Source: Promethearchaeota archaeon (GTDB lineage Archaea > Asgardarchaeota > Lokiarchaeia > Sigyniarchaeales > SOKP01). Taken from it: a stretch of DNA of 64,000 nucleotides. The notes under the pieces were generated by a model. The model worked only from the letters and a program-made list of their open reading frames with translations. It had not been told where the DNA came from and ran no database searches. The DNA lies in NCBI GenBank assembly GCA_019058365.1, contig JAHPZE010000002.1:192001-256000 (forward strand). The letters run 5' to 3'. Positions 51,683-57,108 of the stretch are shown one piece after another; positions within the stretch are counted from its first letter, which is position 1, and every line of letters begins with the position of its first letter. The position numbers and the translations under genes were made by a program.

Positions 51683-51970
51683 TTGAGTTCTAGGACGATG
51701 GATTATCAACGAGAATTTAAAAATGCTCTATTATCACAACCTCACTGTATTTTAGGTAAAAATGGAATATCTAATGGATTTATTGAACATGTACTTAAAT
51801 TATTAAAAAGAGATAAAATCATAAAAATCAAAGCATTGAAATCTATTGCGACAAGATCAAATATTAATGAATTAGCTAATAAAATCTCGAATTTAACAAA
51901 CTCTAACCTTCTAGATGTTAGAGGTAAAATAATTATACTTACTAATTATGATATAAAAAATTTCAATTAA
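51683..51970 (+). CDS. yhbY: YhbY/CRM RNA-binding protein
   Basis: ILGKNG, IKIKALK, DVRGKIIIL. Confidence 0.88.
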   Translation: MSSRTMDYQREFKNALLSQPHCILGKNGISNGFIEHVLKLLKRDKIIKIKALKSIATRSNINELANKISNLTNSNLLDVRGKIIILTNYDIKNFN

Positions 51971-51992
51971 AATTGCTTTCAAGAACAATTAA

Positions 51993-52337
51993 ATGCCAAA
52001 AGGTAACCAAAATCCTAAAAATATTGCAAAAAAGATTGCAAATTCCCGAATGCTTTACCTCTTTCAGAAAGCTCATGAAGTGTTTCCTAAAAATAAATAT
52101 CTATCAAATCGATATATCTATTTTGCAAGACGCTATGCTCAAAGAACTAAAATAAAAATCCCTTTTGAGTGGAAAAAACGTATATGTCCTAAATGTAAAA
52201 TGTTTTTATACCCAGGCATGAATTATAGAATAAGAATACACTCACAGAAAGGAAAAGGTTCTCATCTCTCTTTAACTTGTTTTGAGTGCGATAAGACTAC
52301 AAGATATTTCATTAAATTAAAAAGGAAAAAGAAATAG
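51993..52337 (+). CDS. rnp4: RNase P subunit Rpp21/Rpr2
   Basis: KKRICPKC...PG...TCFEC. Confidence 0.9.
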   Translation: MPKGNQNPKNIAKKIANSRMLYLFQKAHEVFPKNKYLSNRYIYFARRYAQRTKIKIPFEWKKRICPKCKMFLYPGMNYRIRIHSQKGKGSHLSLTCFECDKTTRYFIKLKRKKK

Positions 52338-52371
52338 TATCATTATTTTAATTAATAAGAGAGAGTGGTTT

Positions 52372-53046
52372 ATGCCATTAATCATAATATTGGCTGAATG
52401 TGGATTAGAATTAATACCCAAACAAATAAGGAATCATCCTGCTGTGAAGAAAAATATATCTTCAAGAATTTATTCTTCACAATTATTAGATAACGCTTTA
52501 CATTTTTCCGCTATGAAAAAATTGAAAAATTATGAAAAGAGAGGACGACCAGACATAACCCATGTTTGTTTACTTAACGCTTTAGGATCACCTCTAAACA
52601 AAAATGGAAATTTAATACTATATATTCATACAATTAAAAATAAAATTTTTAAAATAAATCCTGAATTAAGAATCGCACGAAATTATAACCGGTTTAAAGG
52701 ATTGATTGCGAAATTATTAATAGATGGAAGTATCGAGATAAAAGGTTCATACTTAATAGAACCAATTAGAGGTACCTTAAAGGAACTTATCTCTAAATTT
52801 GAAAATTCCGAAGTTTACCTATCTTCAAGTAAGGGTAAGTCAATTGATAACTATAGAGATTTGTTTCAAGACGCTTTAGCTAAAAATTATATTGTTATCA
52901 TAGGGGGATTTCAAAAAAGTAGTTTCTCTGAAGAAATTACTAACTTATCTGGAAACCAAATCTCAATTTCAAGATACCCATTAGATGCGTGGATTGTTGT
53001 CAATAAAATTATAACTTATTATGAACTAACTCACAGAATTCATTAA
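52372..53046 (+). CDS. nep1: rRNA pseudouridine methyltransferase Nep1/EMG1
   Basis: KRGRPDITH, GSPLNK, RNYNRFKGL. Confidence 0.92.
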   Translation: MPLIIILAECGLELIPKQIRNHPAVKKNISSRIYSSQLLDNALHFSAMKKLKNYEKRGRPDITHVCLLNALGSPLNKNGNLILYIHTIKNKIFKINPELRIARNYNRFKGLIAKLLIDGSIEIKGSYLIEPIRGTLKELISKFENSEVYLSSSKGKSIDNYRDLFQDALAKNYIVIIGGFQKSSFSEEITNLSGNQISISRYPLDAWIVVNKIITYYELTHRIH

Positions 53047-53095: not shown

Positions 53096-53167
53096 GCGCC
53101 GCTAGTCTAGGGGTTATGATTCCGGCCTTCCAAGCCGGTGACCCGGGTTCAATTCCCGGGCGGCGCA
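53096..53167 (+). tRNA. tRNA-Gly(TCC), intronless
   Basis: Acceptor GCGCCGC/GCGGCGC, anticodon arm CCGGC-CTTCCAA-GCCGG, GGTTCAATTCC. Confidence 0.96.
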
Positions 53168-53460: not shown

Positions 53461-54627
53461 TTGAGTAATACTATACTATTAATCATTATAATGGTTAAAT
53501 ATACTTATAAAGAATTTAAGTCAGTTTTAAATAAATTAAAATATCCAGATTCATGGTTTTGGTCTCGATACACATTAAACACATATTCTGGATGTGCTCA
53601 TGCTTGTATCTATTGTGATGCTCGAAGCGAGAGATATTATATCGAGGATTTTGAAAATGAAGTGATTATTAAAACTAATTTCGATAAGAAACTAGATCAG
53701 AGACTTAAAAAAGCTCGAACATTATTGCCTGATATAATTGCTCCTGGTGGTGTAAATGATGCCTATCAACCTATTGAAAAGAAAATTGAGCATACGAGGA
53801 AAGTATTAGAAGTTATTGCAAAATATAAATTTCCAATTAATATCGCTACTAAATCGAATCTAGTTACTCGAGATGTTGATATTCTTAGAAAAATCGCAAA
53901 TGAGACATGGTGTGCTATAGGATTCTCTATATCGACTACAAATGAAGAACTAGCGAAATTCTTAGAACCTTATTCTTCTTTGCCTTCGGAACGACTTGAA
54001 GCTTTAAAAAGGATAAAGAAGGAAGCTCCTAATATTCAAGTTGGGACATATTTCATTCCTATAATTCCATTTTTAGAGGATACTGATGAAAACTTAGAAG
54101 ATGTAATAAAAAAATCTAAAGAGGCTGGTGCTGATTTTGTATTATTTTCACCTGGCTTGACCATGAGGGATTCTCAAGTGGAATATTTCTTAAAAAAATT
54201 AAAAGAAAGTAATTATAACTATGTTGTTAAACCACTACTTGAATTATATCAAGGTCAGATGCATCCACCCTCAGAATATTGTAAAAAAATTAATAATAAA
54301 TTATGGAATTTATGTCAAAAATATAATGTTAATGTCCGAGTAAAACGTTGGATTCCTTCAGATTTCCGTAATTGGAATTATAAAATATCAGAATTACTCT
54401 TAAATAAAGAGTATATAGATGCATTAAAAACAGGTAAATCGAATAAAACTCTAATGTGGGCAGGATTGAACCTTAATAACCTAGAAGAATCGATTTTAGA
54501 CTTTTATAAGAGAGATGAATTGCACACTATAAAAAACTTTAATCCCAAAATAATTGAACTTATCGAACCTTACTTGGAAAAAAGTAAAGAATTAAAACAA
54601 AAAAAGGGGTTAGAAAAATTTCTATAA
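53461..54627 (+). CDS. Radical SAM protein, SplB/Rv2578c-like
   Basis: YSGCAHACIYCDAR, DAYQPIE, IATKS, LEP...ERL. Confidence 0.85.
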   Translation: MSNTILLIIIMVKYTYKEFKSVLNKLKYPDSWFWSRYTLNTYSGCAHACIYCDARSERYYIEDFENEVIIKTNFDKKLDQRLKKARTLLPDIIAPGGVNDAYQPIEKKIEHTRKVLEVIAKYKFPINIATKSNLVTRDVDILRKIANETWCAIGFSISTTNEELAKFLEPYSSLPSERLEALKRIKKEAPNIQVGTYFIPIIPFLEDTDENLEDVIKKSKEAGADFVLFSPGLTMRDSQVEYFLKKLKESNYNYVVKPLLELYQGQMHPPSEYCKKINNKLWNLCQKYNVNVRVKRWIPSDFRNWNYKISELLLNKEYIDALKTGKSNKTLMWAGLNLNNLEESILDFYKRDELHTIKNFNPKIIELIEPYLEKSKELKQKKGLEKFL

Positions 54628-54659
54628 TCACAGAAATAATCACAGAAATCAATGAAGTA

Positions 54660-55364
54660 TTGAAAAATACAGCTCCTAAATTTACTCCCGAACAGATTGT
54701 TCGAAGAAACAAAATACTAAATTCTAATAATCCAAACTTTTTTGGATATGGTCATAAGATTTCTGATATAGAAAAAATTACTAAAATCGTCCATATGAAA
54801 TATCAATGTAGTTATGAAGATGCTCTCACCGTTTGTAAAAATTTAGTTAGTTCCAGTGTTCATGAGGAGAAATTTGCTGGTATATTTTTTCTCAATTACT
54901 TTAAAAGCAATTTCAATCAAGCGACTATAGATATGTTTGAAGAACTATTCTCCAAACACTGTGATACGTGGGCTTTTTGTGATAGTAGTTGTATTAGAGT
55001 TATTGGACCATTTCTCGGAAAAAAGAATAACCAACAATTAGCTGAAAAAACAATTGATAATTGGTCAACATCTGAAAATCTTTGGGTTAGAAGAGCTTCA
55101 ATAGTAATTCTACTTAAAATTATAATGATTAAAAAAAGATTCGATGAGGATTATGTATTTGAATTTGTAGAAAAAATGCTTAATTACACCGAGGATTATA
55201 TTCAGAAAGGTATTGGTTGGCTCCTAAAAACGTGCTCAAGATATAAACCTGATTCAATTTTTAAATACTTAATGAGTAATAAAAAAAGACACTCCCGCTT
55301 AATTCTTAGATATGCTAGCGAAAAATTAACTAAAGAAAGAAGGGAGTTAATTTTGGAAAAGTAA
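54660..55364 (+). CDS. DNA alkylation repair protein (AlkD-like)
   Basis: DTWAFCD, SENLWVRRAS, YIQKGIGWLLK, LRYASEK. Confidence 0.88.
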   Translation: MKNTAPKFTPEQIVRRNKILNSNNPNFFGYGHKISDIEKITKIVHMKYQCSYEDALTVCKNLVSSSVHEEKFAGIFFLNYFKSNFNQATIDMFEELFSKHCDTWAFCDSSCIRVIGPFLGKKNNQQLAEKTIDNWSTSENLWVRRASIVILLKIIMIKKRFDEDYVFEFVEKMLNYTEDYIQKGIGWLLKTCSRYKPDSIFKYLMSNKKRHSRLILRYASEKLTKERRELILEK

Positions 55365-55477
55365 AGGAATCATATGAAAAAACTTTATATGATATTTTTT
55401 CCTTTTTAAATTACGAATTTTGATATTTTAAAAACTTAAATGTTTTATAAAATAAAAATTCTCAATATAACCAAAGA

Positions 55478-55668
55478 GCCAAGGTGGCGTAGTAGAACTC
55501 CTAATTAGGGAGTCTGCGAACCCCGGGAACGCACTAGAATCATCAGAATTACTGATAATGGTGAAACTGAAGATCTAGGTATCGAGCAGAATGAGCTCCT
55601 CGTTCATTCTCGAGAAAGTTCAAAGGGATTCGCCTTGAACGGATTCCGGAATAATCTCTCCCTTGGCA
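55478..55668 (+). tRNA. tRNA-Phe(GAA) with four non-canonical introns (15/16, 30/31, 51/52, 58/59)
   Basis: Removing 55493-55521, 55538-55565, 55587-55616 and 55624-55653 gives a 74-nt cloverleaf with all four stems paired; TATA about 25 nt upstream. Confidence 0.9.
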
Positions 55669-55992: not shown

Positions 55993-57108
55993 TTAAGATT
56001 TCTTCAATTTTTTACTTAAAATGATTACTACAACGGATAGAATGCCAAACAGAACGAATAGATTATATCCAGGAATTATTCCATCGTCTTGATTATAAAT
56101 ACAATCTCCATTATCACTAAATGTGTTTCCTTCACAATCAATCTCTATGAAGCATCCATCATTTTCTTGCAAGATGTTTCCCGAAATTATATTATCATCA
56201 CTATTTTTTAAATATATCCCGAATTGAGAATTGTTGAATACGTTGTTTTCCTTAATGTCGTTCCAATTGCTGCCTTCTAAATATATTCCGTTAGTGCCAT
56301 CATAGCTTATACTATTTTCTGTAATTTTATTTCTATGACTATCTACTAAATTTATTCCATTAACGGTATTAAAGCTTATAGCATTTCCCGAAAGGAAGTT
56401 ATTAAAACCATATACATATATCCCACTAACCCCGTTATTACTTGCGTTGTTTCCTGAAATGAAGTTGCTATTACCTCCACAACTTATCCCATCAAGCATG
56501 TTGTTATTTGCTGTATTTCCTGAAATTATGTTATTATTACTTACTATAATTCCTATCCCAAACCGGTAATTCATGTCTGCTGTATTTCTCGCAATGATAT
56601 TATGATAACATCCCGATAAATATATTCCATAATAAGTCAACGAACAATTATTCATGATTATCAGAGAATTGTTTACATTTGATAATTTAATTCCAGCTTT
56701 ATATTCTCCTGGCGGAAATTGGGATATCGCATTGTAGAGGGTACAATTTTCAATCGTAAAATAAACATTTGAATTTTCAATCCAGATACAATTTTCTCCA
56801 TTTTTTGAACCTCCACCATCTATTATCAAATCTTCTATCACGTAAGGGTCGGAATGTGTGCCCGACCCCGAACAATTTCCATCATTTTTAAAATCAACCC
56901 AACCAGAATTACCATCTATATAAATTGGTTTTGATACTTGTGAGGTTTTCAAATTTTCTTTATTAAAAGAAATATCATCACTATATTCCGAATATGGAAA
57001 GCTATTTCCCGCATCAAGAATGAGATTAGTGTTATTTATAGTTGAAAGGATGAAAACAATTCCTATGGTGATTAAAATAATAATTTTTGATTTTGCATTT
57101 GATTTCAT
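55993..57108 (-). CDS. NosD/CASH beta-helix surface protein with Loki-CTERM-like anchor
   Basis: Paralog of 33242-34450; NNIISGN repeats; IPGYNLF-TM-KKLKK tail. Confidence 0.82.
   Translation of the reverse strand: MKSNAKSKIIILITIGIVFILSTINNTNLILDAGNSFPYSEYSDDISFNKENLKTSQVSKPIYIDGNSGWVDFKNDGNCSGSGTHSDPYVIEDLIIDGGGSKNGENCIWIENSNVYFTIENCTLYNAISQFPPGEYKAGIKLSNVNNSLIIMNNCSLTYYGIYLSGCYHNIIARNTADMNYRFGIGIIVSNNNIISGNTANNNMLDGISCGGNSNFISGNNASNNGVSGIYVYGFNNFLSGNAISFNTVNGINLVDSHRNKITENSISYDGTNGIYLEGSNWNDIKENNVFNNSQFGIYLKNSDDNIISGNILQENDGCFIEIDCEGNTFSDNGDCIYNQDDGIIPGYNLFVLFGILSVVVIILSKKLKKS

What the first reader, a model, noticed from the sequence alone, without database searches (positions are those of the whole stretch)
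55478..55668. tRNA-Phe(GAA) gene split by four non-canonical introns, including a 7-nt micro-exon
Seen: exons 55478-55492, 55522-55537, 55566-55586, 55617-55623 and 55654-55668 join to GCCAAGG TG GCGT AGCCCGGGA ACGC A CTAGA CTGAAGA TCTAG GTATC GAGAG TTCAAAT CTCTC CCTTGGC A, a 74-nt cloverleaf with all stems paired. Each 28-30-nt insert forms its own hairpin placed for bulge-helix-bulge geometry, at 15/16, 30/31, 51/52 and 58/59; none is at canonical 37/38. Known: archaeal multi-intron tRNAs that I am aware of carry up to three introns (e.g. Thermoproteales), and standard scanners can miss such genes. Inference: an extreme tRNA-splicing substrate in an Asgard archaeon, needing a broad-specificity EndA.
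Basis: partly seen in the sequence, partly recalled or inferred. Interest (0 to 1): 0.92.

Follow-up and report, generated by a model that had tools for sequence, protein, structure and literature searches.

The report
Four-intron phenylalanine tRNA, Asgard archaeon
The only phenylalanine tRNA gene found in this Loki-type Asgard archaeon is split into five pieces by four short introns, and two standard tRNA finders miss it; it is real, but Asgard tRNA genes with four or five introns are already published.

Summary
The five exons join to a 74-nt tRNA-Phe(GAA) that ARAGORN accepts with all stems paired. ARAGORN and Rfam miss the unspliced gene. It is the only tRNA-Phe found in the assembly, a Promethearchaeia (Lokiarchaeia) genome.

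The same gene in 47 genus alleles carries 0-4 introns; intron-free and three-intron alleles fix the junctions. Twelve alleles have four introns, and one has the same four. All four introns fit the bulge-helix-bulge (BHB) register: one has 4/4 central pairs, three have 3/4. [quoted passage not shown] Splicing is inferred; no RNA run was listed.

The novelty claim fails. Four-intron Asgard tRNAs are tabulated in Valentin-Alvarado 2024, one apparently with a 7-nt exon, and a 2026 preprint reports up to five. This scan found similar genes before on other DNA. Verdict: new member of a known kind, and a useful example of intron turnover in Lokiarchaeia.

The parts
55426..55463 (+). Conserved upstream block with a TATA-like box (TTTATAAA, 55444-55451); probable archaeal promoter of the tRNA gene
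   Evidence: Near-identical block upstream of the gene in 10 relatives while the few bases next to the tRNA vary; promoter role is inferred
55478..55492 (+). Exon 1 (positions 1-15: acceptor 5' strand, D-stem 5' strand)
55493..55521 (+). Intron 1, 29 nt, at 15/16 (D-loop); relaxed BHB, central helix GCGU/GCGA 3 of 4 pairs, intron helix starts at once
   Evidence: Absent from L005-L007 and L190 with exons 0-1 bases different; register test; hairpin covariation in homologues
55522..55537 (+). Exon 2 (positions 16-30)
55538..55565 (+). Intron 2, 28 nt, at 30/31 (anticodon stem); central helix CACU/GGUG 4 of 4 pairs
   Evidence: all four helix pairs kept in 16/16 homologues; A-U/G-C swaps in the hairpin
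55566..55586 (+). Exon 3 (positions 31-51) with the uninterrupted anticodon loop and GAA anticodon; no canonical 37/38 intron
55587..55616 (+). Intron 3, 30 nt, at 51/52 (T-stem); relaxed BHB, AUCG/CGAG 3 of 4 pairs, 9-bp intron helix
   Evidence: 3 of 9 homologues have 4/4
55617..55623 (+). Exon 4, 7-nt micro-exon (positions 52-58): 1 bulge base of intron 3, the 4-base helix strand and 2 bulge bases of intron 4
   Evidence: Sequence plus BHB register; the same 7-nt exon in 8 Phe alleles
55624..55653 (+). Intron 4, 30 nt, at 58/59 (T-loop); relaxed BHB, GUUC/GGAA 3 of 4 pairs, 8-bp intron helix; the 4-bp outer helix (T-stem) forms only after intron 3 is removed
   Evidence: 3 of 7 homologues have 4/4
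55654..55668 (+). Exon 5 (positions 59-73, discriminator A; CCA not encoded)

Best explanation
This is the functional and only tRNA-Phe(GAA) gene of a Promethearchaeia (Lokiarchaeia) archaeon. It is transcribed from its own TATA promoter as a precursor of about 190 nt plus leader and trailer (inferred). Each of four 28-30-nt introns forms a local BHB-type motif with the six exon bases before it: intron 2 with a full 4-bp central helix, introns 1, 3 and 4 with 3 of 4 pairs (shown from sequence and homologues). The (alpha-beta)2 EndA, whose catalytic subunit has the broad-specificity loop, cuts after the second base of each bulge, and RtcB with archease joins the exons (genes shown; activity inferred from established archaeal biochemistry). 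End trimming and CCA addition finish the 74-mer (inferred). The 7-nt exon is exactly 1+4+2 bases, the shortest that lets the motifs of introns 3 and 4 coexist without sharing bases, so no strict order is forced; removing intron 3 first would add the T-stem as outer helix for intron 4 (inferred). The introns are near-neutral passengers gained and lost repeatedly at a small set of BHB-compatible sites (inferred from allele mosaics).
For: The spliced product is a fully paired tRNA-Phe and the only Phe locus found in a near-complete set of about 46 tRNA genes. Intron-free and partly intron-free orthologues exist in the genus. Among seven close relatives exons differ by 0-1 of 74 bases and introns by up to 11 of 30. 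At the homology-fixed junctions each intron has at least 3 central pairs plus an adjacent intron helix; no shift of +/-1-3 scores as well. An intron moved elsewhere in the tRNA reaches 3 pairs in only 16% of placements. Homologous introns keep the three inner helix pairs (8/8, 16/16, 9/9, 7/7) and show two-sided changes in their hairpins. Two EndA paralogues: one has Y139/H147/K178 and K56 aligned to A. pernix K44 of the L1 loop (K44 role in PMC5829648), the other lacks the catalytic His. RtcB and archease are neighbours on C35.
Against: [quoted passage not shown] ViennaRNA does not make the BHB the ground state: forcing each motif costs 2.4-7.4 kcal/mol in the full precursor, and central-helix probabilities are about 0 for introns 1, 2 and 4, so local folding or enzyme binding must supply it. 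Three of four motifs are relaxed. The assembly is a MAG with 6.6% contamination, and a second tRNA-Phe could be unassembled.
Confidence: 0.93

Rival explanations
1. A pseudogene or chance mosaic: the inserts are not removed, and tRNA-Phe comes from a gene missing from the assembly.
For: The genome is a MAG in 54 contigs; no RNA evidence; the BHB is not the predicted minimum-energy fold.
Against: Exons are almost invariant across close relatives while introns drift. The promoter block is conserved. The exon-1 pattern occurs once per genome in 41 of the 42 genus genomes with a match, so no second copy is the rule. BHB pairs are kept under change.
Confidence: 0.02
2. The gene is real, but splicing follows an obligatory order (for example intron 3 before 4) or needs a cofactor beyond EndA/RtcB, because the relaxed motifs are too weak in the full precursor.
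For: Intron 4 gains its 4-bp outer helix only after intron 3 is out. Motifs for introns 1, 2 and 4 are not predicted ground states. Ordered removal is reported for multi-intron tRNAs of C. merolae (PMC3728597).
Against: The 7-nt exon is long enough for both motifs without overlap. The intron at 58/59 also occurs without the 51/52 intron (L257), and 51/52 occurs with 59/60 instead. The EndA has the loop known to allow relaxed motifs.
Confidence: 0.3
3. The introns are selected functional elements, such as protection of the tRNA gene against virus integration or a regulatory brake on maturation, not neutral passengers.
For: Most genus alleles carry introns (44 of 47), and the same few sites recur. 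The anti-integration idea is a published hypothesis recalled from memory, not tested here.
Against: Three genus genomes have an intron-free allele. Intron sets are mosaic and hairpin sequences turn over. Goswami 2026 found no enrichment of mobile-element context near intron gains, with limited power.
Confidence: 0.12

Closest known systems
Heavily interrupted tRNA genes of Atabeyarchaeia, Freyarchaeia and Jordiarchaeia (Valentin-Alvarado 2024, PMC11291895; Goswami 2026, bioRxiv 10.64898/2026.10.13.758758)
   Same: Asgard tRNA genes with several non-canonical introns at BHB-compatible sites. Four-intron genes are listed (Freyarchaeia Arg-TCT and Ile2-CAT, 4 by both methods); the Ile2 coordinates imply a 7-nt internal exon if the jumbled columns are read as four begins then four ends. 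Up to five per gene, repeated gains, two-paralogue EndA.
   Different: A different class (Promethearchaeia), not named in the preprint's main text. This genome's overall load is lower: about 1.2 introns per gene and 76% interrupted, against 2.2 and 97% in the focal families. Introns here are about 30 nt against a median of 22-23. Published Atabeyarchaeia tRNA-Phe genes have three introns.
Multi-intron tRNAs of Thermoproteales (e.g. Pyrobaculum islandicum tRNA-Pro(UGG); Sugahara 2007/2008 as reviewed in PMC4090602)
   Same: Non-canonical positions, strict and relaxed (HBh') motifs, removed by an (alpha-beta)2 EndA.
   Different: The cited example has three introns including the canonical one. 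Introns there are often copies shared between tRNA types, whereas none of the four here has a look-alike elsewhere in the genome (best 12-15 nt chance matches).
Cyanidioschyzon merolae disrupted tRNA genes (Soma 2013, PMC3728597)
   Same: Up to three ectopic BHB introns per gene, with spliced products and ordered removal shown by RT-PCR.
   Different: A eukaryote; some genes are also permuted. The gene here is collinear and not tested experimentally.

Membership tests
Archaeal tRNA-Phe(GAA) gene | Cloverleaf of 70-78 nt with paired stems and a GAA anticodon after splicing | tested here: met
   ARAGORN on the joined exons, 74 nt
Archaeal tRNA-Phe(GAA) gene | Orthology to uninterrupted tRNA-Phe genes | tested here: met
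   Intron-free alleles L019, L169, L170 align end to end, behind the same upstream block in L019
Archaeal tRNA-Phe(GAA) gene | Expressed and aminoacylated | not testable with these tools
   No RNA holder listed
BHB-type (EndA-spliced) archaeal tRNA intron | 4-bp central helix between two 3-nt bulges with cuts after the second bulge base (strict motif) | tested here: inconclusive
   Met for intron 2 (4/4); introns 1, 3 and 4 have 3/4
BHB-type (EndA-spliced) archaeal tRNA intron | Relaxed motif (3 of 4 central pairs plus a flanking helix) at the homology-fixed junction | tested here: met
   All four at register 0, better than any shift of +/-1-3; helix pairs conserved in homologues
BHB-type (EndA-spliced) archaeal tRNA intron | Host encodes EndA and RtcB | tested here: met
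BHB-type (EndA-spliced) archaeal tRNA intron | Cleavage and ligation shown | not testable with these tools
   Needs RNA data or an enzyme assay
(alpha-beta)2 EndA with L1 (CSL) loop | One paralogue with Tyr/His/Lys triad and the loop lysine (A. pernix K44) | tested here: met
   G000:C26 protein Y139, H147, K178 and K56, read from the alignment to 3p1z_B (for K44)
(alpha-beta)2 EndA with L1 (CSL) loop | Second, structural paralogue lacking the catalytic set | tested here: met
   G000:C12 protein has Ser where M. jannaschii EndA has the catalytic His
(alpha-beta)2 EndA with L1 (CSL) loop | Heterotetramer formation and broad substrate range | not tested
   Inferred from PMC5829648, which reports this type and loop for Asgard
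Split or permuted tRNA | Exons on separate transcripts or in swapped order | tested here: not met
   Five exons collinear within 191 nt
Group I/II self-splicing intron | Catalytic core of well over 100 nt | tested here: not met
   Inserts are 28-30 nt single hairpins; no Rfam match

The most novel reading that the evidence does not exclude
This Lokiarchaeia genus is a further, undescribed Asgard lineage with fast tRNA-intron turnover. One orthologous tRNA-Phe locus holds 0-4 introns at 10 positions in mosaic combinations, its most interrupted alleles escape standard scanners and would be invisible to a census built on scanner hits, and frequent sites closer than 7 nt are never occupied together. 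Such allele series could make the open question of how BHB introns arrive testable, especially if the mRNA mini-introns noted elsewhere in this genome belong to the same pool.
Probability: 0.4. Interest if true: 0.5.

Novelty: new member of a known kind. Interest (0 to 1): 0.27.

Why it matters
The gene is a clean example of a tRNA that ARAGORN and Rfam miss entirely, so Lokiarchaeia tRNA sets and intron counts built on such scanners are probably too low; the 2026 census says it sees only genes that tRNAscan-SE detected. The allele series in this genus (0-4 introns on near-identical exons) is ready material for studying intron gain and loss and for a first biochemical test of an Asgard EndA on relaxed motifs and a 7-nt exon. 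It sets no record and reveals no new mechanism.

Tried and rejected
RNA evidence: no RNA holder was listed for the locus; this is no evidence either way, and no reads were laid. tRNAscan-SE and SPLITS were not available, so whether they would find the gene is untested.

An alternative register for intron 1 giving a 4/4 helix (CGUA/UGCG) was considered and rejected: it leaves an 11-nt D-loop and disagrees with intron-free orthologues. ARAGORN's intron-mode call of a tRNA-Phe(gaa) at C35:40289-40390 was rejected: spliced alignment resolves it as tRNA-Thr(CGT) with one intron.

Copying of the four introns from elsewhere in the genome: only chance-level matches. A five-intron Phe allele was sought and not found in those searched; about ten genus genomes gave no Phe locus. 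Folding of all 16 splice states gave no reliable order, because the model does not favour the BHB helices. The helix counts for relatives' introns (all 120 with at least 3 pairs) are partly circular, since that aligner rewarded BHB fit; only the window's junctions were fixed by homology alone. No species tree was built, so the direction of individual gains and losses is not claimed. The preprint's supplements were not held, so its figures for Lokiarchaeia families are unknown. A TiaS look-up used a wrong accession (TIGR03280 is methan_mark_11) and says nothing.

Full report
OBSERVATION. Joining the five exons gives 74 nt that ARAGORN calls tRNA-Phe(gaa) with every stem fully paired. The unspliced locus is missed by ARAGORN on the window and on the genome with or without intron mode, by Rfam on the region and by the RF00005 model on the genome. 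The inserts are 29, 28, 30 and 30 nt, each a hairpin. Introns 1 and 3 cannot slide, intron 2 can slide +1 and intron 4 +/-1. The locus lies in an AT-rich gap (flank GC 16-22%, exons 54%) between a DNA alkylation repair gene and a convergent beta-helix protein gene. CCA is not encoded.

SOURCE. The window is G000:C34:192001-256000 of a 4.74-Mb, 54-contig assembly, rated 100% complete and 6.6% contaminated. Most named close relatives of its EndA are Promethearchaeota/Promethearchaeia MAGs, including bin132, bin108 and Loki_b32, and a neighbouring gene carries a Loki-CTERM domain. The host is therefore a Lokiarchaeia-type Asgard archaeon.

IS IT THE ONLY tRNA-Phe? A whole-genome spliced alignment with two Phe templates gives one strong locus (107); the next is 43 and is a Leu tRNA, and the reversed genome gives nothing at 25 or above. 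Extending this to all isotypes recovered about 46 tRNA genes: 11 without introns, 21 with one, 10 with two, three with three and this one with four, or about 1.2 introns per gene and 76% interrupted. Tyr, Leu(TAA) and Asn are not fully resolved. Arg(CCG) and Ile2(CAT) were not found. So the set is nearly complete and Phe has no other candidate in the assembly.

RELATIVES. A homology-only spliced alignment finds the same tRNA in genus-mates behind the same upstream block. Across 47 distinct genus alleles the intron count is 0 (3 alleles), 1 (6), 2 (15), 3 (11) and 4 (12) (three alleles come from one contaminated MAG, and BLAST retrieval favours less interrupted genes). G023 has the same four introns. 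Four alleles have introns 2-4 but not intron 1; two have 19/20 in its place; seven have 19/20, 30/31, 51/52 and 59/60; one has 5/6, 15/16, 22/23 and 37/38. In seven close relatives exons differ by 0-1 base of 74 and introns by up to 11 of 30. Most pairs of common sites show all four presence/absence combinations, which needs repeated gain, loss or recombination. Sites 15/16 and 19/20 are never both occupied (0 seen, 6.9 expected), nor 19/20 and 22/23 (0 against 4.6), and the shortest internal exon in any Phe allele is 7 nt. Kin are not independent, so this is a lead only, and other tRNAs here have 4- and 6-nt exons.

SPLICE MOTIFS. At the homology-fixed junctions the central helices are GCGU/GCGA (3/4), CACU/GGUG (4/4), AUCG/CGAG (3/4) and GUUC/GGAA (3/4), each followed directly by an intron helix. 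No shift of 1-3 bases scores as well, and an intron moved to another site in the tRNA reaches three pairs only 16% of the time. In homologous introns the three inner pairs are always kept; the mismatch is always the outer pair, and some relatives repair it. The hairpins show two-sided changes, e.g. A-U/G-C at 30/31 and several pair types at 15/16. The 7-nt exon is exactly one bulge base of intron 3 plus the helix strand and two bulge bases of intron 4. Against this, ViennaRNA places each motif 2.4-7.4 kcal/mol above the precursor's best fold, and 1.0-1.7 kcal/mol for introns 2 and 3 in a nascent transcript. The motifs must therefore form locally or on the enzyme; that step is inferred.

MACHINERY. 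The genome has two EndA paralogues. The 198-aa one aligns best with Aeropyrum pernix EndA and has the Tyr/His/Lys triad (Y139, H147, K178) and K56 opposite K44 of the Crenarchaea-specific loop. That lysine confers cleavage of relaxed, non-canonical introns, and the loop and (alpha-beta)2 type are reported for Asgard (PMC5829648). The 206-aa one lacks the catalytic His. RtcB and archease lie side by side, and their role in archaeal exon ligation is established (PMC4090602).

MECHANISM. Shown: gene anatomy, orthology, motif geometry, presence of the enzymes. Inferred: transcription from the TATA block, four EndA cuts-and-joins by RtcB, trimming and CCA addition. I put this at 0.93. A forced order of removal is possible but not required by the geometry. 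A pseudogene reading is very unlikely.

COMPARISON AND NOVELTY. Valentin-Alvarado 2024 reported that 92-95% of tRNA genes in three Asgard genomes have introns. Their table has an intron-4 column and lists four-intron genes, with Freyarchaeia Arg(TCT) and Ile2(CAT) at four by both methods; the Ile2 coordinates imply a 7-nt internal exon on my reading of the columns. Goswami 2026 counts up to five inserts per gene, repeated gains and BHB enrichment, leaves arrival routes open, and notes that genes missed by tRNAscan-SE are invisible to it and that splicing of the new inserts is not yet shown. Its main text does not name Lokiarchaeia, and two further searches found no paper on Loki tRNA introns in the held library. 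Earlier notes of this scan describe four-intron Asn and Trp genes and three-intron Phe alleles in other Asgard genomes, and BHB mini-introns in protein genes of this genome (not tested by me).

VERDICT. A real, well-supported four-intron tRNA-Phe; a new member of a known kind. What it adds is the lineage, the complete miss by two scanners and the 0-4-intron allele series. Interest 0.27.

Noticed in passing
L165:289-486 (G000:C35:133588-133785, +): tRNA-Asn(GTT) has two ordinary introns and a 60-nt, two-hairpin insert at 63/64 where relatives (L228, L230, L232) have a single 30-nt intron. It looks like an intron nested at the 3' end of an intron; the register is unresolved. L213 (G022) has the same insert plus three more introns, which would make five.
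   Followed up: partly
L228, L230, L232 (tRNA-Asn of genus relatives): Four introns with a 4-nt exon between 59/60 and 63/64. The helix strand of the last intron spans the previous junction, so removal must be ordered.
   Followed up: partly
L166 (G000:C34:25519-25694, -): A three-intron tRNA with a 6-nt exon that splices to tRNA-Ile with anticodon UAU (ARAGORN). No Ile2(CAU) gene was found in the census; TiaS was not properly checked.
   Followed up: partly
L167 (G000:C32:1868-2030, -): tRNA-His(GTG) with three introns, not found by ARAGORN or RF00005 on the genome; accepted by ARAGORN after manual splicing.
   Followed up: partly
G000:C34:23029-23180 (+), outside the window: A selenocysteine tRNA with two introns.
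   Followed up: no
G000 whole genome: About 46 tRNA genes; only 11 are intron-free, and few introns are at the canonical 37/38 site. Most are about 30 nt. tRNA-Arg(CCG) was not found.
   Followed up: partly
L259/L260 (G000:C35:26226-27989): rtcB and archease genes are adjacent and convergent.
   Followed up: no
window 53096-53167 (+): Intron-free tRNA-Gly(TCC), directly after a YhbY, Rpp21, Nep1 gene run at 51683-53046.
   Followed up: no
window 53461-55364 (+): Radical SAM gene followed by a DNA alkylation repair (AlkD-like) gene, just upstream of the tRNA-Phe promoter.
   Followed up: no
window 55993-57108 (-): Parallel beta-helix protein with a Loki-CTERM sorting signal, convergent with the tRNA.
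   Followed up: no
L017, L205, L206 (G004): One MAG holds three different tRNA-Phe alleles on separate contigs, probably bin contamination (9%).
   Followed up: no
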